Origin: an uncultured Acidimicrobiaceae bacterium
GTDB lineage: Bacteria; Actinomycetota; Acidimicrobiia; Acidimicrobiales; Palsa-688
DNA length: 64,000 nt
Direction of reading: 5' to 3'
Assembly (NCBI GenBank): GCA_963780345.1
Contig: CAWABU010000002.1
Span: 595,512 to 659,511 of the forward strand
Part shown: positions 8,246 to 32,587 of the stretch, piece by piece
Layout: each line of letters starts with the position of its first letter
How positions within the stretch are numbered: position 1 is the stretch's first letter
The notes under the pieces: generated by a model
Told to the model about the DNA's origin: nothing
The model's input: only the letters and a program-made list of their open reading frames with translations
Databases searched by the model: none
Translations under genes and position numbers: made by a program

Positions 8246-8381
8246 CGGCGCATGCTAGAAGCCACCAGCGCCGAAGTCCTGACGACGCCTACATGGGTCT
8301 AGGTCAGCCGTGCACCTGAAACGGTGCGGCGCGGTCAGTCCTGTCGACGAGAGGAGGTCTCTTCCGTCCTCGGGCTCCTCG

Positions 8382-8747
8382 TCACTGTCCAAGCCAGGCG
8401 GTAGTAACGCCGGGGATCTCGCCCAGGGGTCCAACGGCCAGGATGGTGGCGTCGTCGGGGTCCGCAACCCCACCGGTGTAGCCGCAGGTCAGGTAGCGAC
8501 CGTCGTGCTGTCGTATGATCTCGACCCAGTTATTGGTACCGGGCCGGCTGGCGACGATCACCGTGGGTCCCCCCTCCCTCCGGTCGACAGCGGGGTATAC
8601 ACCTGCCTCGTTCAGGGCCGCGACCACGAGACCGAGCTCATCGGCGGCGGTGGGATAGACGGGGCCTTCATCGTGCCTGCTTGCCGGACACATGACGTCG
8701 GTTTCCTTTCTCTGCGACCAGGTGCGATGGGGAGGGGGCGCCCCCAC
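8382..8747 (-). CDS. hypothetical small protein
   Basis: ORF only, and the start is uncertain (internal Met at 8693). No motif recognised. Confidence 0.25.
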   Translation of the reverse strand: MGAPPPHRTWSQRKETDVMCPASRHDEGPVYPTAADELGLVVAALNEAGVYPAVDRREGGPTVIVASRPGTNNWVEIIRQHDGRYLTCGYTGGVADPDDATILAVGPLGEIPGVTTAWLGQ

Positions 8748-9442
8748 TGGGAATGACGCATCGCGTCATCGGCCCGGCGGCGACGGGTCCGACTCCCGGC
8801 ACTGCAGACCCACCGCCTACCCGGTGACCTCGACTCATATGCACACGCTGCCTTCTCAATGGCCTTACCGCCCCTGTGTTCAGCGTTCCCTGCCATACCT
8901 ACGAGTGCCGGGCCATAGGAGATTGGGCGTGGCGAGTGATGGGGCCCATCGTGAGACTGAGGGTGTCGTGCGCCACGCCAAAAGTCCGATGAACTCGCCC
9001 TGCCCCGGTGCTACGCCCACCAGCGAGAGTGTCCGCAGCCGTTCCTCTTCGGCAAAGGGACCCGGAGTCCGCAGACGTCGACGACGCTGGCGAGTCCATC
9101 GGCGCGAAACGTGACGGAAGAGCTGACCGGGAAGAACCGGTCTCGGCGGCGACTGACCGACGACCCGGACGGGTCAGAATCCCCGGTAGAACCCGCTCGT
9201 TGGCGGTGCGAGCCGTTGGGTTCATTCACTCCCAGGGCCGATGGCAGCCGCCCTCACCCACCGCTTGTCCGCTGTTGGTCAGTTGACCCGCTGTCGAAGA
9301 GGAACGGAGGATCGCCGGTGAGGCCACGATGGCTTGCGCGACCAACGGTCTCTGGCTTCTACGCCCGCGGAGCCCGGGCGCTCGAAGTCTCCGTTCTTTA
9401 CCAGCCGAGGTGACGACCTGGAGTCACTGCGACGAGCGGGGG

Positions 9443-10510
9443 CTACCGCGCGCCATCCGGAAACCCCTCGTCACCCGGCTCGAGCTGGACGCCGTAGGCA
9501 TTAAGGGACATTGAGGTGGACCGGTACGAACTGGCGGTGAAGACCGCGCTCATTGCCCCGGCGAGTCCGTAGCGGTCGAGGATGGCGTCCCACGTGTCGT
9601 CCGACACCCTCGAGTCCTGGTGGAGATCGTCGGACACGCGCATCAGCACGGCGTCCTGGTCGGAAACAAGCGGCGCCGTTGGCCCGGTGGCTACCAGCCT
9701 GGGGTCTATGCCGTGGTCGCGGGCGTGTCCAACGCTACCGACATGCTTGGCCCACTCGTATTCTGCCTGGCAGTCCCAGCCAATACGCAAAATCAATGTC
9801 TCTCGGTCGTGGGGCGATAGAGGCGAGTTCGCGGTAATAAACGCGGCGCGCGGCCGACGCGCCTCGGCCATGACCGGGTGGCGAGCAAAAGTCCGTAAAA
9901 CGGCGATGCCTTTGCCCTGGATCGGCTCGATACGCGCCCTGGTCAGCGCCGGCTGGCGGCGAGGGACGGGCGGGCGGTCCGCGGGCGGAAGAGCCCAGCT
10001 TGAGGAGGCCGGCGGGACGTCGAACGAGCGAGCCAAGCAGCACAGGAACGACGCGTGGGCGACCGTCTCGACGGCATCCATCACCCAGGTGACGCCGGCG
10101 TGGTCGCCGACGAGGTTCGACCAGGTCGAGTCGGTCACAGACGTGTTCAACACCAGCTCGTCAGCGAGTCGAAGCAACTGCTGGTCCGCCAGGTCACTCC
10201 GGTCACTCTGACCCACCAGACGCGCCATATCAGGGAATTCGGCACCTGCGAGGGCCGCCAGCCCGGCCCACACCGCGTCGCTTCTTTCCAGCCAGGCCGT
10301 TCGCAGGCTGAGGAGGTGACGGTCCCTAGGCGACAGCGACGACTCCTCGATGACGTAGCGGGTCATGGGCAGCACGGCCTCGACCATCTCGGGCACGTGC
10401 AGGAGAGTCGCGATAAGGGGGTCGACGGGGTCATCCGGGGCGAGTCGGGCCAGGACGTCCCTGTGGATGTCCTGCCACTCCTCCTCGGGCAGAGGACGCA
10501 CGCGCGGCAT
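9443..10510 (-). CDS. carboxymuconolactone decarboxylase (AhpD-like) family protein, two tandem CMD domains
   Basis: N-terminus MPRVRPLPEEEWQDIHRDVL and two repeats of the CMD pattern (SPRDRHLLSLRTAW, SPHDRETLILRIGW). The ORF track extends it upstream to 11104 with non-protein-like sequence, so the ATG at 10508-10510 was chosen. Confidence 0.7.
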   Translation of the reverse strand: MPRVRPLPEEEWQDIHRDVLARLAPDDPVDPLIATLLHVPEMVEAVLPMTRYVIEESSLSPRDRHLLSLRTAWLERSDAVWAGLAALAGAEFPDMARLVGQSDRSDLADQQLLRLADELVLNTSVTDSTWSNLVGDHAGVTWVMDAVETVAHASFLCCLARSFDVPPASSSWALPPADRPPVPRRQPALTRARIEPIQGKGIAVLRTFARHPVMAEARRPRAAFITANSPLSPHDRETLILRIGWDCQAEYEWAKHVGSVGHARDHGIDPRLVATGPTAPLVSDQDAVLMRVSDDLHQDSRVSDDTWDAILDRYGLAGAMSAVFTASSYRSTSMSLNAYGVQLEPGDEGFPDGAR

Positions 10511-11297
10511 AGGCGAGTCTGTCGCAGAGATCCTGCAGCTGCACGGCAAATGCACTGAAACTGGTCCCGCCATCCTCATCCCTCGCCCTTTCGACTGGCG
10601 ACGGGAGCCATTTGAAGGAGACGGCATCCCAGCGGGCGGCAGCAGCCTCCGGGGATGAGAGCGTTCCGCCATCGTGTCGCCGATGACATTGAAAGGCGGC
10701 AGAGGTTCTCGACTCGTCGGTCGCACCGCCGGGCCGGAGGCGAAGGCGGGGCCCGCGTCATCGGTGCACTGTTGGAATAGGGGGCCGGTCCAGTCGTTGC
10801 ATAACCGGCATGCCGCAGGCGGGTGACGGTCTCGGTTTGCTTCGCCTGCCGACAGTCGGAAGTACCCACCCGCGAGCCCGCGAAGACTGACGCCCGACAA
10901 GCGGCAGAACCGGCCTTTTAAGCTCCTGACCGCGAGGACGAGGGGTCCCATTCGCCTGGAGGACCCGAGTCCGGTGTCAGCCCCCCGAATCGAGTTCGCG
11001 GGAGACCTGGCGACACTGTTGCCCACGGCCTGATCGAGGTTGAGATGGCGGCCAAGTTCCGGTCGTGTCCCCCGCCAGGCGACACGACCGAGCTCCGGGC
11101 ACATCGTTATGTAGAGCGCTGGACGAGCGGATCATTTTGTTCACTGGACATGTCGCCCGGTGTTGCTTTTCGTCCTGAGCCGTATCGAGGCATCGCCTTG
11201 GCCGCGATGGAGCGACAGGCCAAACCCAACACTTAGCCATGGTGGGATGTGGTGCACTCAATCGTTAGGCAAGCCGCCTACCAGGGGGGCCTTTGTG

Positions 11298-11370
11298 AGC
11301 CCGAGAGCGGAATCGAACCGCTGACCTACGCATTACGAGTGCGTTGCTCTGCCGGCTGAGCTACTCGGGC
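11298..11370 (-). tRNA. tRNA-Thr (anticodon CGU)
   Basis: Manual cloverleaf: acceptor GCCCGAG/CUCGGGC, D-stem GCUC/GAGC, anticodon stem ACGCA/UGCGU with loop CUCGUAA, T-stem AGCGG/CCGCU with loop UUCGAUU, discriminator U. CCA is not encoded. Confidence 0.85.
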
Positions 11371-11455
11371 CTGAGCTGCTCTTTTATGCTTAACTCACCC
11401 GACGATAGCACCTCTTGGACATGCTTTTGGACGTATGCTCGGTTCGGAGGAGAAG

Positions 11456-12607
11456 ATGCGAGGCTCGCTCAGCGAATGGGGTGGTCCAGGCAGCGGCAAG
11501 TGGAAGTTGCGGGTGTACACCGGTCGGGACAGTCGCAACCGGCCGAGCTACCTGTCGCGCAATTTCACCGGTTCCCGGCGCCAAGCCGAGAGCGCGCTGA
11601 GCAAGCTCGTTGCCGACGTCGAGCGAAGGCAGGCGACCACCAACCATGGTGGCAGCGTACGCGACCTGCTCACCCGCTGGCTCGCCGATATCGAGCCCAC
11701 CCACTCCCCCGGGACCATGCGCGAGCACCGGCGCAGCGTCGAGCGCAACATCCTCCCTGCCATCGGATCGGTACGCCTCGATCGACTCACGGCCCGGCAC
11801 CTTGACGACCTCTACCGGTCGCTGCTCGCCCGGGGGCTCTCCCCCGCCTCCGTCCGGCGTCATCACGCCATCCTCTCAGCGGCGCTCCGGCGGGCGGTGA
11901 AGTGGGATTGGCTGGCAAGCAACCCGGCGGACCGGGCTTCACCTCCGGGGATCAGACGTCACTCGACAACTACACCTTCGACCGAAGCCGTCCAGCACCT
12001 CGTCGTTGCCGCCCAGGAGGAGGACCCCCTACTCGCAGCTGCCATCGTGCTCGCAGCCGTGACGGGGGCTCGTCGAGGAGAACTGTGCGCTCTTCGCTGG
12101 TCGGACGTGGACTGGGGGCGCCGCACGCTCGCCGTGGCGCGATCCCTCACCGTCATCGGCCGACAAGCCAGCGAACGCCCAACGACGACCCATCAACGAA
12201 GGGACGTCGCCATTGACGACACGCTCTGCGCCTTCATCGCTCAACGACAGGTCGAGCAGCGAGCCTACGCAGAGACGGTCGCCGTGGAACTCGTCAAGGA
12301 CCCGTATCTTCTGAGCCGCTCGTCGGACGGGGCCATGCCTTGCCTGCCCGACGGGCTCACGCACGCATACAGTCGACTCGCTACCAAGATCGGCGTGGGC
12401 GGGCACTTCCACGAATTGCGGCATTACGCCGCCACGACATCCATAGCATCGAGAGCCGACGTAAATACCGTTGCCGGCAGACTTGGCCACGCCGACCCAT
12501 CGACGACGTTGCGCATATACGGGGACGCCCTCGAGGCCAGAGACCGCGAGCTAGCGGGCATGCTCGGGACGACCGTTCTCGAACCCGTGAACGGCATGGG
12601 CAGGTGA
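11456..12607 (+). CDS. int: tyrosine site-specific recombinase (phage-type integrase)
   Basis: Catalytic signature R..HELRHYAAT (HxxR) and LGHADPSTTLRIYGD (Tyr nucleophile). The N-terminus has the actinophage-integrase style MRGSLSEWGG..KWKLRVYTGRD. The start could also be 11435. Confidence 0.85.
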   Translation: MRGSLSEWGGPGSGKWKLRVYTGRDSRNRPSYLSRNFTGSRRQAESALSKLVADVERRQATTNHGGSVRDLLTRWLADIEPTHSPGTMREHRRSVERNILPAIGSVRLDRLTARHLDDLYRSLLARGLSPASVRRHHAILSAALRRAVKWDWLASNPADRASPPGIRRHSTTTPSTEAVQHLVVAAQEEDPLLAAAIVLAAVTGARRGELCALRWSDVDWGRRTLAVARSLTVIGRQASERPTTTHQRRDVAIDDTLCAFIAQRQVEQRAYAETVAVELVKDPYLLSRSSDGAMPCLPDGLTHAYSRLATKIGVGGHFHELRHYAATTSIASRADVNTVAGRLGHADPSTTLRIYGDALEARDRELAGMLGTTVLEPVNGMGR

Positions 12608-12866
12608 GGGCATGGCCAGTCCGACCAGGGCCCCGCTGCAGGCCAAAGGGGAAGCAGGGGTCATCATGGCATCGGTAACTCCGAAACGCCGGAGGAATTC
12701 AGGGCAGACGGGCCTCGGACCGGGTCGACGGCCGGGATGGTAGAGATGGCAAACGGGTTCAATCCGCTGCCGCTCCGATCCGATGCGGACTGCGGGCGGC
12801 CCCAGGCTAACCCATCGCCACCCCCCGGCGGTTCCCGATCGTCAACGTCTCGTTGATACGCCATGA

Positions 12867-13424
12867 CCCTGCCTTTTCGGCACCGCGCCGGATGCCCAGG
12901 TGCCAACGTTGGGAGCCAGCGGCGCCATCGCCGCCGTCCTGGGCGCCTTTTTCGTTCTCTGTCCACGCGCCCGGGTCCGTACCTACATCTTTCCGGTCTT
13001 TCTGATCTGGATTCCGGCCTGGATCTTTCTCGGACTGTGGTTCTTGTACCAGCTCGTCGCAGCCAACTTCGGGCTATTCAACGCCACGGCCAACGAGGGA
13101 GGCGTGGCCTTCTTCGCCCACGTAGGTGGATTCGGCTTCGGCCTGCTGATAACAGCGATCCTGGTTCGGACCGACGAGTCGCACCCAGCAAGTCTCGGAC
13201 TCGGTCACGTGGCCGCCTCGGTGCCGAGGAAGGCGCCGGCGCCTCGGGGCGGATTTCGCGGGCCGACGTTGAGCAGGCGCCACCGCCTACTCTGCCTTCT
13301 TGGCCGTTCGTTTTACCTTGAGCAGAGGAGGCCGGATGAAGCTCGAGACACTCAACGTGAGAGCCGAAGGAGCCGTTCTCTTCGTCGAAATCAGTGCCCC
13401 TCCAATGAATCTTCTGGGACCTGA
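12867..13424 (+). pseudogene. rhomboid intramembrane serine protease, 5'-truncated remnant (lacks TM1-3)
   Basis: Contains the GASGAI (GxSG) helix and the catalytic AHVGGFGFGLL His helix, but the frame is closed by a stop at 12864, so about 100 N-terminal residues are missing. The C-terminal 70 aa are Arg-rich nonsense-like. Confidence 0.55.
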
Positions 13425-14157: not shown

Positions 14158-14325
14158 TCCGAGAGTCGCGCCGCAGGACCGGCTGACGTCAATCGGCGTC
14201 TGCGACATTCGCCGGATGTGCTGTTCTGAGGGGTTCGGTCCGACAGGCAGAGCTCGTGAATCTCCGAGAGCGGTTGATTTGCACGCGCTCAGCGGCCGAT
14301 CCCATAGCCTGTTTATCAGCCGCAC

Positions 14326-15069
14326 GTGCGCAAGGGGAGGATCAGCGTGGCAGGCACCCAGCCGACAATCGAGCAACAGGCCGACACTGCCATCCATACG
14401 TTGTCCGCGGCTCTACCGGAAGCGGCGCTCGACGACCTGCGGCGCCGCATTCCAGCTACCCGCTCGCCGAAGGGGGAAGTCGTCAACGACCGGTCACCGG
14501 ACGGGCAACTGGCCGCCATGCAGGGGGTCTTGCACTATTGGGCGGACGAGTACGACCTGGGCCGGTTCCTGGAGAGGCTAAACGCCCTTCCCCAGTTCAC
14601 AACCGAGGTCGACAGCGTGACATCCACTTCTTGCACCAGCACGAGGAAGCACCGCCGCTGATCATGGCGCACGACTGGCCCGGCTATGGCTTCTCCGCTA
14701 TGCCCGCCGAGGTCGGCTGGGATCTGGGCCGGACCGCCCGAGCCTGGGCGGAGCTGATGCGCCGCCTGGACTACACCCGCTTCGTGGCAAAGGGCGGCGA
14801 CGTCGGGGCCGGCGTCACTGACGCCATGGGGAGGCCTACGGACCGGACGCTCCGGCGGCGCAAAACCACACGGCGCCGGCCGCTGTCCCGGTCGGCTTCA
14901 CCACGTTCCCCGGCGAGATCTGGAAGACCCCGCGGAGATGGGCCGAGACTGCCTACCCCACGCTCAATTACTTCCATCAGGCCGAGAGGGGGGGCCACTT
15001 CGCGGCCTGGGAAGAGCCGGAACTCTTCGCCGCCGAGCTGCGAGCCGCGTTCCAACCGACGCGTCGTTG
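14326..15069 (+). pseudogene. epoxide hydrolase, disrupted by frameshifts and internal deletions
   Basis: The EH N-terminal domain (..YWADEYDLGRFLERLNALPQFTTEVD) is in frame 1. HFLHQHEEAPPLIMAHDWPGYGFS and GGDVGAG (nucleophile region) are in frame 0. The C-terminus LNYFHQAERGGHFAAWEEPELFAAELRAAF is in frame 2. The total span is about 400 nt shorter than an intact EH. Confidence 0.7.
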
Positions 15070-15104
15070 ATTCCTGACCACGACAGGCAGAAGGAAGGGG
15101 AACC

Positions 15105-16728
15105 ATGAATTCACACCGCCCGCGGCGCCTCCGGCGAGCTGCGATAGTTGCGGCGTCGGCGGCCAGTTTCGGCGCAACCGTACTGGGCGTCGGCACCGCT
15201 GGCCCGGCGGCGTCCGCCGCGCCAGGCTCGGCCAACCCGGTCGTGCACGTTCATGGCGGCTTCGTCCGCGGGTCGGAAGCTGCCGGGGGTGGACTCGTTC
15301 CTGGGCTTGCCGTACGCCGCCCCGCCGACGGGGAACCTGCGGTGGCGCCCACCCGAGCCGCCGTCGGCCTGGTCTGGAGTCCGGGACGCCACGACCTTCG
15401 GTCCAAGCTGCCCGCAGGTACCCTTCCCACAAGACCCGTTCGCGCCGCCCGGCCCGATGAGCGAGGACTGCCTGTACCTCAACGTCTATGGACCACCGGC
15501 ACGCGGTGGCGATGAAGGCGGCCGTCCGGTGCTGGTGTGGATCCACGGCGGCGGCCTCGTCCAGGAAGGCGCCCGCAACTACGACGGCACGAAGCTGGCC
15601 GCCGACGGCGTCGTCGTGGTCACGATCAACTACCGCCTCGGCGCTCTTGGGTTCCTGGCCCATCCGGCGCTCGCCTCGCGGCCGGGGGCCGCGGCCGGCA
15701 ACTACGGCCTGATGGACCAGCAAGCGGCCCTGCGCTGGGTCCAGCGCAACATCGCCAGGTTCGGGGGCGACCCTCACAACGTGACCATCGCCGGCCAGTC
15801 CGCCGGAGGCCTGTCGGTGCTCGCCCAGATGGTCTCGCCCGGCGCCCGCGGGCTTTTCCAGCGAGCCGTCGTGCAAAGCGGGACGTTCGCTCTGACCCAG
15901 CAGCCGCTCGCCACGGCCGAGGCCGCCGGCGAGAAGTTCGCCGCTGACGTCGGGTGCCCGGACCAGACCGCGGCGTGCCTGCGCCGCCTACCAGCCAGCG
16001 ACCTGGTCAGCCCCACCGTCATCGAGATTCCCGGCGTCGTGGACGGACAGGTGCTCACCCAGTCGATCGGAACGGCCCTGGCTCGTGGCCAGTTCGCCCG
16101 GGTGCCGCTCGTCAACGGCATCACCCACGATGAGGAACTGCTCTTCGTCGACGGCCTCCAACTCACCGTGAGTCAAGGGACGGACGTGCCACTGGTAAAG
16201 CCACTGAGCTCCGCCACCTATCAGACCGACATCGCCGGGGCCCTCGGTGTAACAGACGCACGGGCTGCAGCGATCGCCGGCGAATACCCGCTCGGCGCCT
16301 ACCCGGGGCCGGATGTGGCCTTCAGCACCTTGATCTCCGACGCCAGCTTCGCCTGCTCGGCCCTGCAAGTCGACCGCTGGACCGCGGCGCGTGCGCCGAC
16401 CTACGCCTACCAGTTGAACGACGACCTGGCGCCAGTGAATATCCTTGGTTTCACCCTGGGCTTGGCGACGCACGGGGCAGAACTCCCCTATCTCTTCGAT
16501 CAGCCCAACCCCCCGTTCCCTGCCACGCTCACCGCTGACCAGGCGGCGCTCGCCGCCAGCATGCGCACCGACTGGGCCCGTTTCGCCCGCACCGGCAACC
16601 CGTCGTCGCGGGTGCTGCCCTGGCCGTCGTTCCACGGAGCCAGGGTGCTCTCGCTCGTGCCGTTGCACTCGCAGGTCACGACCAACTTCGCCACCGCGCA
16701 CCACTGCTCATTCTGGGCCGCCGGCTGA
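15105..16728 (+). CDS. carboxylesterase type B (pnbA-like), apparent +1/-1 frameshift near the 5' end
   Basis: The signal peptide and ANPVVHVHGGFVRG are in frame 0 (15105). The rest (FLGLPYAAPPTG, EDCLYLNV, FGGDPHNVTIAGQSAGG nucleophile elbow) is in frame 1 from about 15280. It is intact from 15148 onward. Confidence 0.8.
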
Positions 16729-18152: not shown

Positions 18153-19706
18153 ATGACCCACAGTGCCGGGCTTGGCCCGTTGTTCGACGCGGCGGCCGGT
18201 GAGACAGAAGACGTGGTGTCATTCGACGGTCGGGCCTCGGCCCTCATCTCACAGTTGCCGTGGGCGGTGCCGCCGAGCGATCCGCGCGTGTGGGCCCATC
18301 GGCGTGAACTTGACCAGACGGTCCGGCGCCTGGCCGAGGAGTACGTGGCCGGGCAGATCCGTGCCGTGGCCTCGACGGGCGAGGCGCTGCTCCGGCTGGC
18401 CGACGATGACTCATTCCGCGCCGCCGCCGACCGCGCCCAGCGGCCGGCCCAGCTCGCCGGACGGGTGCTGCGGCCAGACGGGATTCCCGCCGAACGCCTG
18501 CAGGTGAGCTTCGGCCGTGGCGTCTCCGTGTCGGGTCCGATCCCCACGGCGTTCAGCGCGGCGGACGGTTCGTTCGTGCTGTCGGTGCCGTCGGACCTGC
18601 GGGAGGCGTCGAGTGCCGCGCCGGCGTTGGTGGTAACGGGAGCAATCGGCAGCGAGGTTATCTCGGACGCCCTGGCCGAGCTTCAGCCCAATGGATTTCT
18701 CGGTTCCCTTCGCCTGGCCCGGCAGCTGGACCCGCTGCCGCTGTCACTGCTCGGACGCCTCGAGACCATGGTGCAGAACACCACCTCCCTGACCGAGCAG
18801 GCGCCGCAGCACGCACAGCCGTCCGTGCTGATCGGCGAGGACGAATGCGAGATCGTCTTTCGCAAGGACACCTCGCTGGACCGCTTCCAGTTCCCGGTGT
18901 TCTTCCGGCTCACTGATCCGGCGCTGAGCGAGCCGACACTGGTGTACGGGCCGCGCAAGGGGCACGCCAAAGCCGGCCTTCCGCAGCTACCGGTGTACGG
19001 GCCCTACTCGCCGGCCACAGCCCTGATGGGTGGAGCCCAGGAGCTCGAGCTGCATCTCGCCGAGCGCGTGCCGATCGATCGTCCCGTGTCGGTTGACGCG
19101 TTCCGCGAAGGGCTCGCCAAAGTAAGGCCCGGGTGGTGGAACGGGGTGCCGATTGCGTCGTCGCTCGCACTTGGATATGTCGTGCAAATGGCGCAGCGTT
19201 GGACGCCGCTCGGTCTCGCACTCGGTGATCTCGTCTACTCCCTGCCACTCGCGCCCGGCGAGCAGCAGCGCGTTGCGGTCATCGAGCGAACGGCGACCTC
19301 CACCGTCCTGGAGAGCGAGACACTCGAACAGACCGAGGAACTGAGCTTCAGCGAGCAGGACGACACTTCGACCGCGGCAACCTTTGCCTCTGCGTACCAG
19401 GAGGCCGCAGGCGGCGGCAGCAGCTACGCCAGCGATGCCAGCTCGTTCGCCGCCGCGGCGGCGGGCGGGATCGGCGGCGTGTTCCCGTTCGGCGCCGCGG
19501 GGGGAGGTGTCTCCACCAGCTACGGCAGCGCCCAGGCCAGTGGCCAGACCGAGACGTGGATGTCCGGGACCCGGTCCGCGACATCGGACGCGGCCGAGCA
19601 AACGCAGCCGCGACCGAACGCCAAGCGGTCGGTCGGCGCCAGGCGGCGCGAACCGGGATGCGGATGGCCACTGCGACAGAGAACGACGCCGTCACTACCA
19701 AAGTGA
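18153..19706 (+). CDS. hypothetical large protein, gene 1 of the unknown operon
   Basis: 517-aa ORF with strong codon bias and an SD GGGAGG 8 nt upstream. No signal peptide. Central Cna-B/CarboxypepD_reg-like segment (GRVLRPDGIPAERLQVSFGRGVSVSGPIPTAFSAADGSFVLSVP). Gly/Ser/Ala-rich C-terminal third. No family recognised. Confidence 0.6.
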   Translation: MTHSAGLGPLFDAAAGETEDVVSFDGRASALISQLPWAVPPSDPRVWAHRRELDQTVRRLAEEYVAGQIRAVASTGEALLRLADDDSFRAAADRAQRPAQLAGRVLRPDGIPAERLQVSFGRGVSVSGPIPTAFSAADGSFVLSVPSDLREASSAAPALVVTGAIGSEVISDALAELQPNGFLGSLRLARQLDPLPLSLLGRLETMVQNTTSLTEQAPQHAQPSVLIGEDECEIVFRKDTSLDRFQFPVFFRLTDPALSEPTLVYGPRKGHAKAGLPQLPVYGPYSPATALMGGAQELELHLAERVPIDRPVSVDAFREGLAKVRPGWWNGVPIASSLALGYVVQMAQRWTPLGLALGDLVYSLPLAPGEQQRVAVIERTATSTVLESETLEQTEELSFSEQDDTSTAATFASAYQEAAGGGSSYASDASSFAAAAAGGIGGVFPFGAAGGGVSTSYGSAQASGQTETWMSGTRSATSDAAEQTQPRPNAKRSVGARRREPGCGWPLRQRTTPSLPK

Positions 19707-26754: not shown

Positions 26755-26769
26755 TAGCCGACCGGTGCG

Positions 26770-28281
26770 TCAGCTCAGATTGAACGTCAACCCGGTCAGC
26801 GGGAACGTCTCCGGCCCGTTCGTCGAGCAGATCTCGACTCCGTACTCGAGCTGGGTTGGCACGTCGGACGACTTCACCAGACCCTGCGACACCAGATAGT
26901 TGAGATGGGCGAGGATGTCCACCGAGCCGGACTTCACCTGCGTGTGGCGGATGAAGATGAACTCGTCACCGAGGTTGACGAACTGGTAGGCAACGCCCCC
27001 GATGGTCACCGCAATGCCCTGGGTATTCCAGAAGGTCTGGCTCCCGCTGTCCTCGTTCCAGATCATGATCTCGGTCGACCAATTGTTCAGCCAGAGGTCG
27101 TAAGCGGCGTCGATCGACCCGTCGGTGGGGAAAGCCTCTGAGAAGGTCGAAGTGATCGACTGGTAGGCGGAGATCGGCTTCGTCGCGACTCCGTTGTCCC
27201 GGCCACCGACGTCGTACTCGCTGTTCGGGTACGTCTCGACCTGGCCCTGGACGTCCGGCTGGTCGGACACCGCATACCAACTGGCCTGGTTGCACACATA
27301 GATCGACTGCGGGCCATGACTGCCCGACCAGGCGTCGTTGTCCACCCACCAGGTGCCGGTGCTGTCGAGGCCTTGAGTACCGGTCGCCTCGTTGGTCGAA
27401 AAGGACGGCTGGGTGCAGTTCGCGCCCCCGACAGACGGCGGCCCGGTCGTCGGCGGTGGTGAACCGCCCGAAAGTGAGCCCAATGAGAAGATCTGATGAA
27501 TTGTGTTGACGACCCACGGATTGCCGGCGGGACCAACCGCGATCCGGACGGCACCGCCCAAAACTGATGTCCACCTGGATCCAGTCCAATGAAAGATGCC
27601 AAACCCACCGGGCCGAGGATTGGTGCCGACAACCCACGCCAACCCGTTGGCGCCGACTCCCACATCGATCGCCCGGCCCGTCAACAACGTCCAGCCATGG
27701 CCGTTCCAGTGATAGATATGGCCGGACGAATTCACCACCCACGGGTCGCCGCCGGGACCGACCGCGATCCGGACGGCACCACCCGCGACGGCCGCCCACC
27801 CGGTGCCGGTCCAATGAAAGATTTCGAACCCGCCCGCCCGCGGGTTGGTGCCGATCATCCACACCGACCTGTTGGCGCCGACTCCGACATCGATCGCCCG
27901 GCCCGTCAACAACGTCCAGCCATGGCCGTTCCAGTGGTAGATATGGCCGGACGAATTCACCACCCACGGGTCGCCGCCGGGACCGACCGCGATCCGGATG
28001 GCCCCACCCGCCACTGCTGCCCACCCGGTACCAGACCAACGAAAGATGCCGAAGCCGCCAGGCCGAGGATTAGTGCCGACAACCCAGGCCGACCCGTTGG
28101 CGCCCACGGCCACATCCGTCGCTCCGCCCGGGCGGGGGGTGAAGCCCGACAAGGTCGTGTCGGCGTTGACGAGGCTGTCACCCGGCGTAGTAGCAATCCT
28201 CATTATCGCCGTGCCCAGCATTCCGACCGAGACGGCGATGGCCACTACGGCCAACTTTCGAGTTCGGTTCTTCACAGTCAC
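26770..28281 (-). CDS. secreted GH12 glycoside hydrolase with an N-terminal tectonin-like beta-propeller repeat domain
   Basis: Signal peptide. At least 3 near-identical ~80-aa repeats (WAAVAGGAVRIAVGPGGDPWVVNSSGHIYHWNGHGWTLL..) like tectonin/hemolytic-lectin blades. C-terminal GH12 catalytic domain with the TEIMIWN motif. Confidence 0.75.
   Translation of the reverse strand: MTVKNRTRKLAVVAIAVSVGMLGTAIMRIATTPGDSLVNADTTLSGFTPRPGGATDVAVGANGSAWVVGTNPRPGGFGIFRWSGTGWAAVAGGAIRIAVGPGGDPWVVNSSGHIYHWNGHGWTLLTGRAIDVGVGANRSVWMIGTNPRAGGFEIFHWTGTGWAAVAGGAVRIAVGPGGDPWVVNSSGHIYHWNGHGWTLLTGRAIDVGVGANGLAWVVGTNPRPGGFGIFHWTGSRWTSVLGGAVRIAVGPAGNPWVVNTIHQIFSLGSLSGGSPPPTTGPPSVGGANCTQPSFSTNEATGTQGLDSTGTWWVDNDAWSGSHGPQSIYVCNQASWYAVSDQPDVQGQVETYPNSEYDVGGRDNGVATKPISAYQSITSTFSEAFPTDGSIDAAYDLWLNNWSTEIMIWNEDSGSQTFWNTQGIAVTIGGVAYQFVNLGDEFIFIRHTQVKSGSVDILAHLNYLVSQGLVKSSDVPTQLEYGVEICSTNGPETFPLTGLTFNLS
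27640..28120. repeat. two near-identical ~240-bp tandem repeats (part of a longer, more diverged series from ~27540) encoding the tectonin-like blades
   Basis: Two ~240-bp blocks (27640-27880 and 27880-28120) differ at only a handful of positions. Confidence 0.7.
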
Positions 28282-28509
28282 CTGGCCCCTCCAAAAAGAT
28301 AGGCCTGCCCGGATTCCTCGGTGGCCGCCGCCCCTAGCTTAACAACGACCTCCTCTGGGCTCAATCAGCGCTGATGGCCGAACGCGAGGACGGGGAAGGA
28401 GGGCTGTCCTCAGGAGCCGGTCATGGCCTCCTCTCCGGTGGCGACCGCCCATCCGCGAAGCCTATACCGGCCGAGCGGCCGAACAACACGCGGCGCGCTC
28501 CTGACGGTG

Positions 28510-29604
28510 TCAGCTCAAGTTGAACGTCAAGCCGGTAAGCGGGAACGTCTGAGAGCCGGTAGTCGAGCAAATCTCGACCCCGTACTCGAGTTGGGTCGGC
28601 ACGTCGGACGACTTCACCAGGCTCTGCGACACCAAATATTTGAGCGCGGAGAGGATGTCCACCGAGCCGGACTTCACCTGCGACTGGCGGATGAAGATGA
28701 ACTCGTCGCCGAGGTTGACGAACTCGTAGGCAACGCCTCCGACGGTGACCGGGGTGCCCTGGGTGTTCCAGTACGTCTGGCTACCGCTGTCCTCGTTCCA
28801 GATCATGATCTCCGTGCCCCAATTGTTGAGCCAGAGGTCGTAAGCGGCATCCATGCTGTCGCCGCTCGTGGGGTACTGCTCCGCGAACGAGGACGTGATC
28901 GACTGGTAGGCGGAGATGGGCTTCGTCGACACTCCGTTATTACGGCCGCCGACGTCGTACTCGGAGTTCGGGTACGTCTCGACCTGGCCCTGGATGTTCG
29001 GCTGGTTCGACACGGCATACCAACTGGCCTGGTTGCACACATAGATCGACTGCGGACCATGACTGCCCGACCAGGCGTCATTGTCCACCCACCAGGTGCC
29101 AGTGTTGTCAAGGCTTTCTGTCCCGGTAGCCTGGCTGCTCGACCAGGACGGCTGGGTGCAGTTACCACCCCCGACAGGCGGAACCGCCGTGGTCGTCGTG
29201 GACGGCGCCACCGTGGTGGTGGTCCGCGGCACCGTGGTGGTGGTCGTCCGCGGCACCGTGGTGGTGGTGGTCGACGCCACCGTCGTCGTGGTGGACCGCG
29301 GGACGGTGGTCGTAGTGGTCGACGCGGCCGTGGTCGTCGTACTCTGCGGCACCGTGGTCGTGGTGGTCGATCCCGAGTTGGAACCGCAATTCCGACTGTG
29401 CCTCCAGCACGACGGATACGTCCGGAACGGGACGGAACGCATATTGACGCGAGCCGCCTGGTAACTCGGCCCGGCGGTGGGGACGAAGAAGCCAGAGAAC
29501 CCGAAGAGCAGGAAGGTGGCCATGCTTACGCCCAAGGCTGGTCGGACTGAGCGCAACCTCCTCCCGTGGGTCACAGCCTGAATGAGACGTCGATACATCG
29601 ACAT
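28510..29604 (-). CDS. secreted GH12 glycoside hydrolase (endo-beta-1,4-glucanase/xyloglucanase family) with a Thr-rich linker
   Basis: Signal peptide, a long (TTTTTVPRS)n linker, and a GH12 domain about 90% identical to the C-terminus of 26770-28281, with the same TEIMIWN motif. Confidence 0.8.
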   Translation of the reverse strand: MSMYRRLIQAVTHGRRLRSVRPALGVSMATFLLFGFSGFFVPTAGPSYQAARVNMRSVPFRTYPSCWRHSRNCGSNSGSTTTTTVPQSTTTTAASTTTTTVPRSTTTTVASTTTTTVPRTTTTTVPRTTTTVAPSTTTTAVPPVGGGNCTQPSWSSSQATGTESLDNTGTWWVDNDAWSGSHGPQSIYVCNQASWYAVSNQPNIQGQVETYPNSEYDVGGRNNGVSTKPISAYQSITSSFAEQYPTSGDSMDAAYDLWLNNWGTEIMIWNEDSGSQTYWNTQGTPVTVGGVAYEFVNLGDEFIFIRQSQVKSGSVDILSALKYLVSQSLVKSSDVPTQLEYGVEICSTTGSQTFPLTGLTFNLS

Positions 29605-31414: not shown

Positions 31415-32587
31415 ATGTTTGGTTGGCATGTTCCTGCGCCGGATGAGGCGATGCTCATCAGCGGCAAGCTGCATACGGAGAATGGGCTGCCATTCAAGAT
31501 CGTGACCGGCCACGGCGCCTTCGTCGTTCCCATCCGGAACCGGGTCAGCACCCTCACGCTGGCCATGCAGGAGTCCGAGGTGGCCGAAGAGTGCGTCACC
31601 AAACAGGGGATCGCCCTCCTCTGCCGCTCGGTCATCGCCTTCAAGGTCGGTGACGACCACGAGAGCATCGCCAATGCAGCCCGGCGCTTCCTCGAGGACC
31701 AGGACCACATGTCGGTGCTCACTGGAAGAATCTTCGCCGGTCACCTCCGGTCCATCATCGGCTCCATGACCGTGGAAGAGATCATCCGGGAGCGCCAGCG
31801 GCTGGCGGAGGAGGTGCTGGACGCCTCCAAACCAGAAATGGAAAAGATCGGCCTGGTGGTGGACTCGCTGCAGATCCAATCCATCGACGATCGCGGCTCG
31901 GGCTACATCGCCGCACTGGCGGCGCCCTATCAAGCGGCCGTTCAGCGAGATGCTCGCATCGCTCAAGCCCAGGCCGAACAGGCCGCCGCTCAGGCTCACC
32001 AGGAGTCGCTCCGGAACCAGGCAGAATACGAACGCCAGACCGAGGTGACCAAAGCCGGATACAAAGCCGAGATCGATCGAGCCCAGTCCCAGGCCGCGCA
32101 GTCCGGGCCGCTGGCCCAGGCTCAGGCTCAGGCAGCCGTGCTGGAGGCCCAGCGGGAGTTGGCCGTGCGCAATGCCGAGCTCAAGGAGAAGGAGCTCATC
32201 GCCAGCGTCGAGAAGCCCGCGGAGGCGGAAGCCTTTCGGATCCGGACCATCGCCGAGGCCGAAGCCAGGCGCACCAGGCTGCAGGCCGAGGCAACCGCCA
32301 CGGGGCAGGGCATTGCCCTGCAACGCATGCTGGTGGAGAAGATGCCCGAGATCATCGGCGCGGCCGCGTCGGAGCTGGCCAACGCCAACGTCACCGTGCT
32401 CAACGGGGCGGACGGCATGGGTCAGCTACTCGCCGGCCTGGCCGGGCAGGCGAGCCAGCTCATGAAGCTGGTGCAAAACGGCGTCAATCTCAACGGCCAA
32501 AGTGCCCTACCTGGGGGCGACGCCGACGCCGACGCCAAGCAGAGCGGCACGCCGGACTCAGCGTCAACCCGGGCGCCGGCCGGGTAG
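31415..32587 (+). CDS. flotillin-like SPFH/band-7 protein
   Basis: SPFH domain, then a long Ala/Gln/Glu-rich coiled-coil (AQAQAEQAAAQAHQES...EAEAFRIRTIAEAEA). Confidence 0.85.
   Translation: MFGWHVPAPDEAMLISGKLHTENGLPFKIVTGHGAFVVPIRNRVSTLTLAMQESEVAEECVTKQGIALLCRSVIAFKVGDDHESIANAARRFLEDQDHMSVLTGRIFAGHLRSIIGSMTVEEIIRERQRLAEEVLDASKPEMEKIGLVVDSLQIQSIDDRGSGYIAALAAPYQAAVQRDARIAQAQAEQAAAQAHQESLRNQAEYERQTEVTKAGYKAEIDRAQSQAAQSGPLAQAQAQAAVLEAQRELAVRNAELKEKELIASVEKPAEAEAFRIRTIAEAEARRTRLQAEATATGQGIALQRMLVEKMPEIIGAAASELANANVTVLNGADGMGQLLAGLAGQASQLMKLVQNGVNLNGQSALPGGDADADAKQSGTPDSASTRAPAG

What the first reader, a model, noticed from the sequence alone, without database searches (positions are those of the whole stretch)
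11298..12866. tRNA-Thr(CGU) / tyrosine integrase / truncated rhomboid: integration scar with non-canonical geometry
A phage-type integrase sits 65-85 nt from the 5' end of a minus-strand tRNA-Thr. In classical tRNA-targeted islands, the integrase flanks the tRNA 3' end. 260 nt past the integrase stop, a rhomboid protease ORF begins abruptly with its GxSG helix, so TM1-3 are missing, as if the insertion cut it. Either the element inserted into the rhomboid gene, or the tRNA-proximal island has been rearranged. The boundaries (att repeats) are unresolved.
Basis: partly seen in the sequence, partly recalled or inferred. Interest (0 to 1): 0.55.

Follow-up and report, generated by a model that had tools for sequence, protein, structure and literature searches.

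The report
Decayed tRNA-Thr integrase scar, 5'-side type
This is the worn-down left end of a small mobile element whose integrase family inserts into a tRNA gene and replaces the front half of the tRNA rather than the back half, a rare arrangement that databases already record; the neighbouring rhomboid gene is a separate, independently broken pseudogene.

Summary
The tRNA-Thr(CGU) gene (11297-11370, minus) and a tyrosine integrase (11456-12607, plus) are real. They diverge across an 85-nt leader. This geometry is not a rearrangement. In 13 related Acidimicrobiia loci the orthologous integrase (62-92% identical) has the same position and spacing beside tRNA-Thr(CGU). Sister clades sit the same way beside other tRNAs (Ser, Trp, Arg, Met, Leu). 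In five relatives the tRNA's 5' half (positions about 1 to 35-45) recurs as a direct repeat 2.5-11 kb beyond the integrase. These elements therefore cross over in the anticodon loop and supply the 5' half and, by inference, the promoter. Classical relatives in the same family repeat the 3' half instead. Islander already lists 159 such 5'-fragment islands among 3919.

The window copy is a dead remnant. No second tRNA fragment or second arm-site pair occurs in 64 kb. The excisionase and all cargo are gone. The integrase has a premature stop and K244T at a lysine kept in 105 of 106 homologues.

The element did not cut the rhomboid. The gene's 5' end (12824-12857) lies directly before its 3' part (12858-13185), so it has an internal deletion of about 275 nt.

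Verdict: an ordinary new member of a known minority kind; interest low to moderate.

The parts
11297..11370 (-). Intact tRNA-Thr(CGU) gene. Inferred to be a hybrid (attL): host-derived 3' part plus element-derived 5' part.
   Evidence: ARAGORN and Rfam RF00005 at 69.8 bits. The sequence is identical to the tRNA next to the orthologous integrases in L003, L004, L008 and L036.
11333..11339 (-). Anticodon loop (tRNA positions 32-38), the inferred crossover (overlap) region of the former integration.
   Evidence: In relatives the attL/attR identity blocks end at tRNA positions 35-45 in 5'-type elements (L008, L009, L035, L040, L065). They begin at positions 30-32 in 3'-type elements (L020, L045, L099). 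Applying this to the window is an inference.
11340..11370 (-). tRNA 5' half, inferred to have been supplied by the element.
   Evidence: Elements 99.6% identical in two MAG bins (L005, L006) carry identical 5' halves, but their 3' halves differ by a compensated T-stem pair. Displaced 5' halves are present in five relatives.
11371..11455 (.). 85-nt leader (the P' arm of the former attP) between the tRNA 5' end and the integrase start. It presumably holds divergent promoters for the tRNA and for int, plus the int Shine-Dalgarno sequence (GGAGGAG).
   Evidence: The leader is conserved at 85-100% in all Thr-clade loci, while sequence beyond the tRNA 3' end is unrelated. The consensus sigma-70 scan found no promoter. 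The extended -10-like motifs TGCTATCGT (tRNA side) and TATGCT (int side) were read by eye and are an inference.
11415..11434 (+). Pair of arm-type integrase-binding repeats, TTGGACAT-N4-TTGGACGT. It is the only such pair in the window.
   Evidence: There is one match in 64 kb against 0.02 expected. In intact relatives the same kind of pair occurs on both arms of attP, and the repeat sequence co-varies with the element: TTGGACAT in L008, GGGCAAC in L035 and L040, TCCCAAC in L065.
11456..12607 (+). Tyrosine integrase, 383 aa, probably inactive: K244T, four other deviations at near-invariant columns, and a premature stop.
   Evidence: Pfam PF00589 65.3 bits and PF14659 31.5 bits. It is 92% identical to P0002. 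It deviates at five columns conserved at 97% or more in 106 homologues (median 1 per sequence), including K244T where 105 of 106 have K. It lacks the last 17 or so residues of its relatives.
12593..12621 (+). Imperfect tandem duplication (GGCATGGGCAGGT / GGCATGGCCAGTC) that adds 15 nt and introduces the TGA stop at 12605-12607.
   Evidence: Shown by three-frame translation and alignment with seven relatives. The tail motif GQSD resumes in frame after the stop.
12554..12601 (-). Residual 3' end of the convergent excisionase (xis) gene, which overlaps the int 3' end in relatives. The HTH-coding body of xis is absent.
   Evidence: tblastn with L009 Xis residues 53-68 gives E = 7e-5. No match is found to the HTH part. 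The relatives' Xis matches TIGR01764 'excise' at 34.8 bits, above the 28.8 cut-off.
12622..12823 (.). Unassigned spacer. Family homology fades by about 12655. There is no tRNA fragment, no arm repeats and no Rfam hit.
   Evidence: The local alignment score (24) is no better than shuffled sequence (mean 26.6).
12824..12857 (+). 5' remnant of the rhomboid pseudogene (codons about 10-21, RRFPIVNVSLI, first half of TM1). The start codon region upstream is degenerate.
   Evidence: blastn gives 91% over 34 nt to L033 10029-10062, the start of a full-length 237-aa rhomboid (E = 9e-7). tblastn with P0125 residues 3-37 also matches here.
12858..13185 (+). 3' part of the rhomboid pseudogene (codons about 112-224: end of TM3 and TM4-TM6 with GASG and AHVGG). 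Together with the 5' remnant it defines an internal deletion of about 275 nt plus a 1-nt frameshift. The open frame runs on to 13424.
   Evidence: tblastn with P0125 residues 113-219 gives 81% identity. blastn matches L033 10349-10674. Pfam Rhomboid positions 67-142 of 143 are covered. Homologues are about 233 aa long.

Best explanation
The locus is the decayed left end (attL plus int) of a small integrative mobilizable element. The element belongs to an Acidimicrobiia integrase family that targets the anticodon loop of tRNA genes.

In this clade attP carries the 5' half of tRNA-Thr(CGU) and an upstream leader. Arm-type integrase sites flank the core on both sides. Integration recombines attP with the chromosomal tRNA in the anticodon loop. 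It leaves a functional hybrid tRNA (host 3' half, element 5' half, driven from the element's leader) next to a divergently transcribed int. The host's own 5' half is pushed to the far end of the element as attR.

In the window, a later deletion removed everything to the right of the int 3' end: xis, cargo, the P arm and attR. The element can therefore no longer excise. The integrase has since picked up a premature stop and the loss of a near-invariant, probably catalytic, lysine.

The neighbouring rhomboid gene is a separate casualty. It has an internal deletion of about 275 nt and was not cut by the element.

Shown: the conserved geometry, the 5'-half direct repeats, the co-varying arm repeats and the MobF/xis cargo in relatives; and in the window, the absence of these parts, the int lesions and the rhomboid structure. 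Inferred: the exact crossover position, promoter use, and inactivity of the integrase.
For: 1. Conserved geometry.
- All 13 distinct relatives beside tRNA-Thr(CGT) on the minus strand (int 62-92% identical) have the tRNA 77-103 nt upstream of the int start; 11 of them (75-92%) lie at 77-86 nt.
- Sister clades lie the same way beside Ser(GCT), Ser(CGA), Trp, Arg(CCT) and Met. A more distant minus-strand clade uses Leu(CAA), Arg(TCT) and Met. More distant relatives lie classically after the 3' end of Gln, Lys, Arg, Ile, Met and Thr genes.
- A neighbour-joining tree shows orientation is clade-specific, with at least 3 switches.

2. Displaced 5' halves in direct orientation beyond int.
- L008: positions -1 to 41, 43/43 nt, 11.2 kb away.
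- L009: positions -13 to 35, 48/49 nt, 2.5 kb away.
- L035: positions 1-45, 7.1 kb away.
- L040: tRNA-Ser positions -2 to 39, 7.2 kb away.
- L065: tRNA-Leu positions 1-40, 3.7 kb away.
- The classical relatives L020, L045 and L099 repeat positions 30-32 to the 3' end.

3. Arm-type repeat pairs occur on both sides of the core and differ between elements.

4. Homology among loci breaks exactly at the tRNA 3' end. A 9.1-kb block that is 99.6-99.96% identical sits in three chromosomal contexts, with identical tRNA 5' halves in L005 and L006 but a host-specific T-stem pair in L005.

5. Cargo of the intact element in L008: excisionase (TIGR01764), MobF relaxase (NF041492, 162.6 bits against a cut-off of 100), an IS110 transposase and, by sequence inspection only, a PIN-like/AbrB-like pair. 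IMG/VR holds nothing above 35% identity and no phage integrase exceeds 31%.

6. In the window: no tRNA repeat, a single arm pair, no other element genes, homology ending inside xis, and the int lesions.

7. Islander lists 159 islands with a 5' tDNA fragment against 3760 with a 3' fragment (PMC4383910).
Against: - No island-free relative of this particular genome was found, so attB and the original right flank of the window's tRNA are not known.
- Only 5 of about 17 minus-orientation loci with enough right flank show the displaced 5' half within 10 kb.
- The 9.1-kb block shared by L001 and L003 ends at 18961 without a tRNA fragment, which is unexplained.
- One D-loop position (20) differs between the otherwise near-identical L003 and L001 elements.
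- The sigma-70 consensus scan found no promoter in the leader.
- Integrase inactivity is inferred from sequence only. K244 is assigned as the catalytic lysine from the xTKTxxxxR pattern, not from a structure.
Confidence: 0.8

Rival explanations
1. The integrase is a host-resident, domesticated recombinase inherited vertically beside tRNA-Thr(CGU), not the remnant of a mobile element.
For: The int-tRNA pair, with its conserved 85-nt spacer, occurs in many Acidimicrobiaceae MAGs. In the window it is the only element-like gene left.
Against: Flanks on both sides differ in every genome, and homology stops at the tRNA 3' end. Near-identical copies with a relaxase sit in different MAG bins. Displaced 5' halves and paired arm sites define excisable units. 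The window copy has lost a 105/106-conserved lysine and its C-terminal tail.
Confidence: 0.07
2. The whole tRNA is cargo of the element, which integrates elsewhere or disrupts the host tRNA without rebuilding it. This would resemble the tRNA-dependent lysogeny of mycobacteriophages.
For: The tRNA always travels with int. The left boundary of the shared 9.1-kb block coincides with the tRNA 3' end. The mechanism exists in actinobacteriophages (PMC10865867).
Against: tRNA-dependent lysogeny is defined by a common core of only about 10 bp and a separate phage tRNA. Here the att identity is 40-49 nt, covers exactly the 5' half, and ends in the anticodon stem-loop. The junction tRNA is itself complete. 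The 3' halves are host-specific beside identical elements.
Confidence: 0.04
3. One reading: the element inserted into the rhomboid gene and removed TM1-3, or a rearrangement moved int to the wrong side of the tRNA.
For: The ORF at 12900 starts at the GxSG helix. Neighbouring genes also look damaged.
Against: The rhomboid 5' end (12824-12857) lies to the right of int and directly abuts the 3' part, so both halves are on the same side of the element. The int-tRNA geometry is identical in all relatives.
Confidence: 0.03
4. The element is intact but very large, with attR beyond the 64-kb window.
For: Many relatives show no attR within 10 kb.
Against: xis overlaps the int 3' end in every relative but is missing here beyond its last 16 or so codons. 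The genes to the right are ordinary metabolic genes with no compositional break. Measured relatives span 2.5-11 kb.
Confidence: 0.05

Closest known systems
tDNA genomic islands with a displaced 5' tDNA fragment (Islander database class; Hudson, Lau & Williams 2015, PMC4383910)
   Same: A tyrosine integrase, an intact tRNA at one end, and a fragment of the tRNA's 5' part in direct orientation at the other end. The anticodon-centred ('A') crossover sublocation also matches. Islander counts 159 such islands among 3919.
   Different: The window copy has lost the 5' fragment and is far below Islander's 2-kb minimum, so that algorithm would not call it. The Acidimicrobiia clade and its arm-site architecture were not found described in the papers I could search.
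Classical P4-like or lambda-like tRNA islands that restore the tRNA 3' end
   Same: A heterobivalent-type tyrosine integrase with an int-proximal attP, arm-type repeats, an excisionase and reconstruction of the target tRNA. More distant members of the same protein family use exactly this geometry (L016, L020, L045, L099).
   Different: The half of the tRNA that is supplied, and therefore the side on which the element lies, is reversed. The element must also supply a promoter.
tRNA-dependent lysogeny of Cluster K4/L mycobacteriophages (Guerrero-Bustamante & Hatfull 2024, PMC10865867)
   Same: An actinobacterial element whose integration leaves the host relying on element-supplied tRNA sequence.
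   Different: In those phages the common core is about 10 bp, the host tRNA is destroyed, and a separate phage tRNA gene compensates. Here a 40-49 nt identity rebuilds the tRNA at the junction.
Integrative mobilizable elements (IMEs) with MobF/TrwC relaxases, and actinomycete integrative elements such as pSAM2 and SLP1 (the two named examples are from general knowledge)
   Same: Small size (2.5-11 kb), int plus xis plus a Cro/C1-type regulator plus a single relaxase, and a tRNA target.
   Different: pSAM2 and SLP1 integrate at tRNA 3' ends. The window retains only int.

Membership tests
Tyrosine recombinase / phage integrase (Pfam PF00589) | Catalytic-domain profile match above the curated cut-off | tested here: met
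   65.3 bits against a cut-off of 27.1. The N-terminal SAM-like domain PF14659 scores 31.5 against 22.6.
Tyrosine recombinase / phage integrase (Pfam PF00589) | Complete catalytic set R-K-HxxR-H-Y | tested here: not met
   R206, H319..R322, H345 and Y355 are present. The lysine of the PTKTHQRRD motif is Thr in the window, whereas 105 of 106 homologues have K. Assigning this Lys as the catalytic one is an inference from the motif.
tDNA island with 5' tDNA fragment (Islander class) | Intact tRNA gene with the integrase gene inside the adjacent island | tested here: met
   The same arrangement is seen in all Thr-clade relatives.
tDNA island with 5' tDNA fragment (Islander class) | Displaced 5' fragment of the same tRNA, in direct orientation, upstream of the tRNA at the far end of the island | tested here: not met
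   There is none in the 64-kb window. It is met in relatives L008, L009, L035, L040 and L065. The window is therefore a remnant of such an island, not a complete one.
Classical 3'-end tRNA island (P4-like) | Island and int lie downstream of the tRNA 3' end, and the 3' fragment is repeated | tested here: not met
   int lies 85 nt from the tRNA 5' end on the opposite strand. There is no 3' fragment repeat.
tRNA-dependent lysogeny | Short (about 10 bp) common core, so that the tRNA is not rebuilt, plus a separate element-encoded tRNA of the same isotype | tested here: not met
   Identity blocks are 40-49 nt, the junction tRNA is complete, and no second tRNA lies in the elements. The definition is taken from PMC10865867.
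Integrative mobilizable element | int plus an excisionase plus a relaxase, bounded by att sites | tested here: not met
   The window has only int and the last 16 or so codons of xis. Relatives L001-L003 and L008 have all parts; xis scores 34.8 bits for TIGR01764 and the MobF relaxase 162.6 bits for NF041492.
Rhomboid intramembrane protease (PF01694) | Six-TM core with the TM2 HxxxN motif, the TM4 GxSG motif and the TM6 His in one reading frame | tested here: not met
   Only profile positions 67-142 of 143 are covered. Codons about 22-111 are deleted, the frame is shifted and the start is lost. It is a pseudogene.

The most novel reading that the evidence does not exclude
Two readings go beyond the routine and are not excluded.

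1. After attR (the host's own tRNA 5' half and promoter) was lost, the genome's tRNA-Thr(CGU) may depend permanently on a promoter and 5' half donated by a dead mobile element. That would be an irreversible 'promoter capture', and it could explain why the tRNA-leader-int junction persists while the rest decayed.

2. One family of anticodon-loop integrases has switched at least three times between supplying the 3' half and supplying the 5' half of its target tRNA, with arm sites co-evolving. This would make the family a natural system for studying how attP polarity and target identity are reprogrammed.
Probability: 0.4. Interest if true: 0.45.

Novelty: new member of a known kind. Interest (0 to 1): 0.3.

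Why it matters
For this window the result is mostly a clean-up. The odd geometry is explained. The supposed gene disruption by the element is not real. The locus is a fossil.

More broadly, the survey gives a well-supported example of the minority '5'-fragment' class of tRNA islands, in uncultured soil and peat Acidimicrobiia. The evidence comprises 5 mapped attL/attR pairs, co-varying arm sites, and near-identical copies in different MAGs. Island finders that assume the integrase and island lie downstream of the tRNA 3' end will miss or misplace such elements. Annotators may also misread their remnants as rearrangements.

The family contains both polarities and many tRNA specificities. That could interest people who mine integrases as genome-engineering tools.

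Tried and rejected
- Repeats of the tRNA +/-150 nt in the window (blastn-short, E up to 50): only chance matches of 17 nt or less. A second arm-repeat pair: none.
- Self-comparison of the window: no repeats involving this locus. A second 390-aa ORF at 31415-32587 is an unrelated protein that looks flotillin-like by eye (not checked against any database).
- Exact look-ups of the window's integrase in assemblies: not on record. The source genome and an island-free sibling could therefore not be retrieved.
- The genome-contig scan returned no 100% hit.
- Synteny through the flanking genes (CMD, GH3, MFS, ECH, EH, esterase, NmrA): no matches in the 33 loci held at that point (L001-L033), apart from one paralogous esterase.
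- Contexts of the closest full-length rhomboids (P0125, P0128, P0152, P0161): no tRNA-Thr, ECH or integrase nearby, so no ancestral arrangement could be deduced.
- Composition profile: no GC or skew break around 11-24 kb.
- Consensus promoter and terminator scan of 11050-12950: nothing.
- Rfam on 7.5-15.5 kb: only the tRNA.
- Looking for xis or other element homology in 12622-12823: not above shuffled controls.
- MAFFT global alignment misplaced the rhomboid 5' remnant. The placement rests on blastn and tblastn.
- Williams 2002 (PMC100330) is not held in the library.
- I first suspected that the 9.1-kb block shared by L001, L002 and L003 showed the tRNA to be cargo. I rejected this after finding the displaced 5' halves.
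Full report
WHAT IS AT THE COORDINATES

ARAGORN finds one tRNA in the 64-kb window: tRNA-Thr(CGT) at 11297-11370 on the minus strand. Rfam confirms it at 69.8 bits.

An ORF at 11435-12607 on the plus strand is a tyrosine recombinase. It matches Pfam Phage_integrase at 7.5e-18, plus Phage_int_SAM_3 and Phage_int_M. A public protein, P0001, is 100% identical over 383 aa, and every homologue begins with MRGS. The real start is therefore ATG 11456, 85 nt from the tRNA 5' end (11370), and the two genes diverge.

An ORF at 12900-13424 matches only positions 67-142 of the 143-position Pfam Rhomboid profile. The window has about 66% G+C, with no compositional break across the region. Related sequences all come from Acidimicrobiaceae or Acidimicrobiales metagenome-assembled genomes.

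THE GEOMETRY IS A FAMILY TRAIT

I fetched the genomic surroundings of integrase relatives from assemblies, GTDB species genomes and JGI metagenomes. I then located tRNAs near the integrase start.

- All 13 distinct relatives beside tRNA-Thr(CGT) on the minus strand (62-92% identity) have the tRNA 77-103 nt upstream of int. Eleven of them (75-92%) lie at 77-86 nt.
- Relatives at 54-62% identity lie the same way beside tRNA-Ser(GCT), Ser(CGA), Trp(CCA), Arg(CCT) or Met(CAT).
- A more distant minus-orientation clade (35-38% identity) uses Leu(CAA), Arg(TCT) and Met.
- Other members of the same protein family lie in the classical way, just after the 3' end of a plus-strand tRNA (Gln, Lys, Arg, Ile, Met, Asn, and even Thr(CGT)).
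- A neighbour-joining tree shows that orientation is clade-specific, with at least three switches.

Alignment of the window with four relatives shows near-identity from the tRNA through the leader into int. All similarity is lost exactly at the tRNA 3' end.

WHERE THE ELEMENTS END

In five minus-orientation loci the 5' part of the tRNA recurs, in direct orientation, beyond the integrase:

- L008: positions -1 to 41, 43/43 nt, 11.2 kb away.
- L009: positions -13 to 35, 48/49 nt, 2.5 kb away.
- L035: positions 1-45, 7.1 kb away.
- L040: tRNA-Ser positions -2 to 39, 7.2 kb away.
- L065: tRNA-Leu positions 1-40, 3.7 kb away.

In three plus-orientation loci (L020, L045, L099) the repeated piece is instead positions 30-32 to the 3' end. 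Both kinds of identity block end in the anticodon stem-loop. The crossover is therefore in or next to the anticodon loop. The two groups differ only in which half of the tRNA attP carries.

Each mapped element also has a tandem pair of 7-8-nt repeats in the leader next to int. A matching pair lies about 100-125 nt inside the far end. The repeat sequence differs between elements: TTGGACAT in L008, GGGCAAC in L035 and L040, TCCCAAC in L065. This is what arm-type sites on the P and P' arms of a lambda-like attP would look like.

A natural control supports the hybrid-tRNA model. A 9.1-kb block that is 99.6-99.96% identical lies in three different chromosomal contexts, two of them different MAG bins from one sample. 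In L005 and L006 the tRNA 5' halves are identical, but L005 has a compensated T-stem pair in the 3' half.

WHAT THE ELEMENTS ARE

The 11.2-kb element of L008 encodes the following:

- int;
- a convergent 68-aa excisionase that overlaps the int 3' end (TIGR01764, 34.8 bits against a cut-off of 28.8);
- a Cro/C1-like regulator (assigned through its 83%-identical counterpart in L001, which has only a weak Pfam HTH_3 hit; the L008 protein itself matched no NCBIfam family);
- a 927-aa MobF/TrwC relaxase (NF041492, 162.6 bits against a cut-off of 100);
- an IS110 transposase;
- a pair that looks like a PIN toxin and an AbrB-type antitoxin (assigned by sequence inspection only; neither matched an NCBIfam family).

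L001-L003 carry the same core. No relative above 35% identity occurs in IMG/VR, and no phage integrase exceeds 31%. These are small integrative mobilizable elements, not prophages.

THE WINDOW COPY IS A REMNANT

- The window has no second tRNA fragment.
- It has only one arm-repeat pair, at 11415-11434, against 0.02 expected by chance.
- No other element gene is present.
- DNA homology with relatives runs from 11297 to about 12601-12620 and then stops.
- An imperfect 15-nt duplication at 12593-12621 introduces the TGA at 12605-12607. This removes the 17 or so C-terminal residues seen in relatives.
- Of the excisionase, only the codons that overlap int remain (E = 7e-5). Its helix-turn-helix part is gone.
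- The integrase deviates at five columns conserved at 97% or more in 106 homologues, where the median sequence deviates at one. The deviations include K244T in the motif PTKTHQRRD, where 105 of 106 homologues have K. From its position between box I (GARRGE) and HxxR (HELRH), I infer this is the catalytic beta-hairpin lysine. The other catalytic residues are intact.

The copy therefore cannot excise, because it has no attR, no P arm and no xis. Its recombinase is probably dead.

THE RHOMBOID IS NOT CUT BY THE ELEMENT

Full-length homologues are about 233 aa.

- tblastn with P0125 aligns residues 113-219 to window 12849-13169 at 81% identity.
- Residues 3-37 align weakly to 12775-12906 in another frame.
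- At the DNA level, window 12824-12857 is 91% identical to the start of the intact rhomboid gene in L033 (10029-10062, E = 9e-7).
- Window 12860-13185 matches L033 10349-10674.

The junction lies at 12857/12858 (…TCGTTGAT|ACGCCATGACCCTG…). A 1-nt loss follows just after it, and the start-codon region is degenerate. Both ends of the gene thus lie to the right of the integrase. About 275 nt, coding for the end of TM1, loop 1, TM2 and most of TM3, are missing from its interior.

The 200 or so nt between the end of family homology and the rhomboid 5' remnant match nothing I could find.

COMPARISON WITH WHAT IS KNOWN

The Islander paper states that integration displaces a tDNA end fragment to one side. 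It tabulates 3760 islands with a 3' fragment and 159 with a 5' fragment, and it recognises an anticodon-centred crossover class (PMC4383910). The geometry here is therefore a documented minority class, not a new kind.

It differs from tRNA-dependent lysogeny. There, a core of about 10 bp fails to rebuild the tRNA and a separate phage tRNA compensates (PMC10865867).

What I did not find described in the papers I could search is this Acidimicrobiia clade, its arm-site architecture, or the repeated polarity switches within one integrase family.

WHAT REMAINS OPEN

- No island-free sibling of the window's genome was available, so the original right flank, and the event or events that removed attR, are unknown.
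- Most relatives show no attR within the 10 kb fetched.
- The block shared by L001 and L003 ends at 18961 without a tRNA fragment.
- Promoter use in the leader is inferred by eye only, and the consensus scan found nothing.
- I could not test whether this tRNA is the genome's only tRNA-Thr(CGU), and so whether it depends on the element-derived half.

VERDICT

It is wrong on cause: there was no rearrangement and no insertion into the rhomboid. The locus is a decayed member of a known minority class of tRNA-integrating elements.

Noticed in passing
window 14256-15077: An epoxide hydrolase (Pfam EHN N-terminal domain) is split over two reading frames. It is too short (about 250 aa) before the carboxylesterase gene starts at 15148. 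It is probably a pseudogene, or an indel error if the assembly is from long reads. Together with the rhomboid it makes two damaged genes within 2.5 kb to the right of the integrase.
   Followed up: partly
window 8246-9442 and 10481-11296: Two stretches of 0.8-1.2 kb have no convincing ORF. They lie on either side of the carboxymuconolactone-decarboxylase-family gene (9443-10480), on the 3' side of the tRNA. Rfam finds nothing there. They could be decayed DNA, for example an old island at the tRNA 3' side.
   Followed up: no
L012 4510-9820 (compare L011, L019, L024): The same tRNA-Ser(GCT) that has the family integrase on its 5' side also carries, on its 3' side, a 5.2-kb insert with no integrase. 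The insert encodes a single 1594-aa repetitive surface protein. It is flanked by a 35-bp direct repeat of tRNA positions 56-90 and is absent from three relatives. Both sides of one tRNA are thus used by different elements. L065 shows a similar 22-nt 3'-end repeat 5.7 kb to its left.
   Followed up: partly
L009 12469-12620; L014 264-320; L018 8458-8514: In L009 the displaced tRNA 5' half is followed by a decayed copy of the leader and int start. In L014 and L018 it is followed by an integrase lacking its first 66 codons. This looks like tandem accretion, with a newer element displacing an older one of the same family.
   Followed up: partly
L001/L006, L002/L005, L003: 9829-18961: A 9.1-kb block is 99.6-99.96% identical in three chromosomal contexts. 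It includes two extra tyrosine recombinases (346 and 562 aa) at its right end, and L002 carries a serine-recombinase insertion. The block ends without a tRNA fragment, so its true right boundary is unresolved. L001 has a group II intron (GTGCG..., RVT_1/GIIM ORF) just beyond it.
   Followed up: partly
L030-L032 10001-10531: A 176-aa rhomboid-family ORF (P0161) begins at about residue 89 of the 233-aa homologues, in three separate assemblies. It is either a naturally short form or another truncated copy. Rhomboid genes in this group may be prone to decay.
   Followed up: no
window 26769-29198: There are internal DNA repeats at 81-86% identity (26769-27452 against 28509-29198, and 225-nt-offset repeats within 27506-28130). 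They lie in minus-strand ORFs with unusual codon-position G+C, suggesting a repetitive protein gene pair. They are unrelated to the finding.
   Followed up: no
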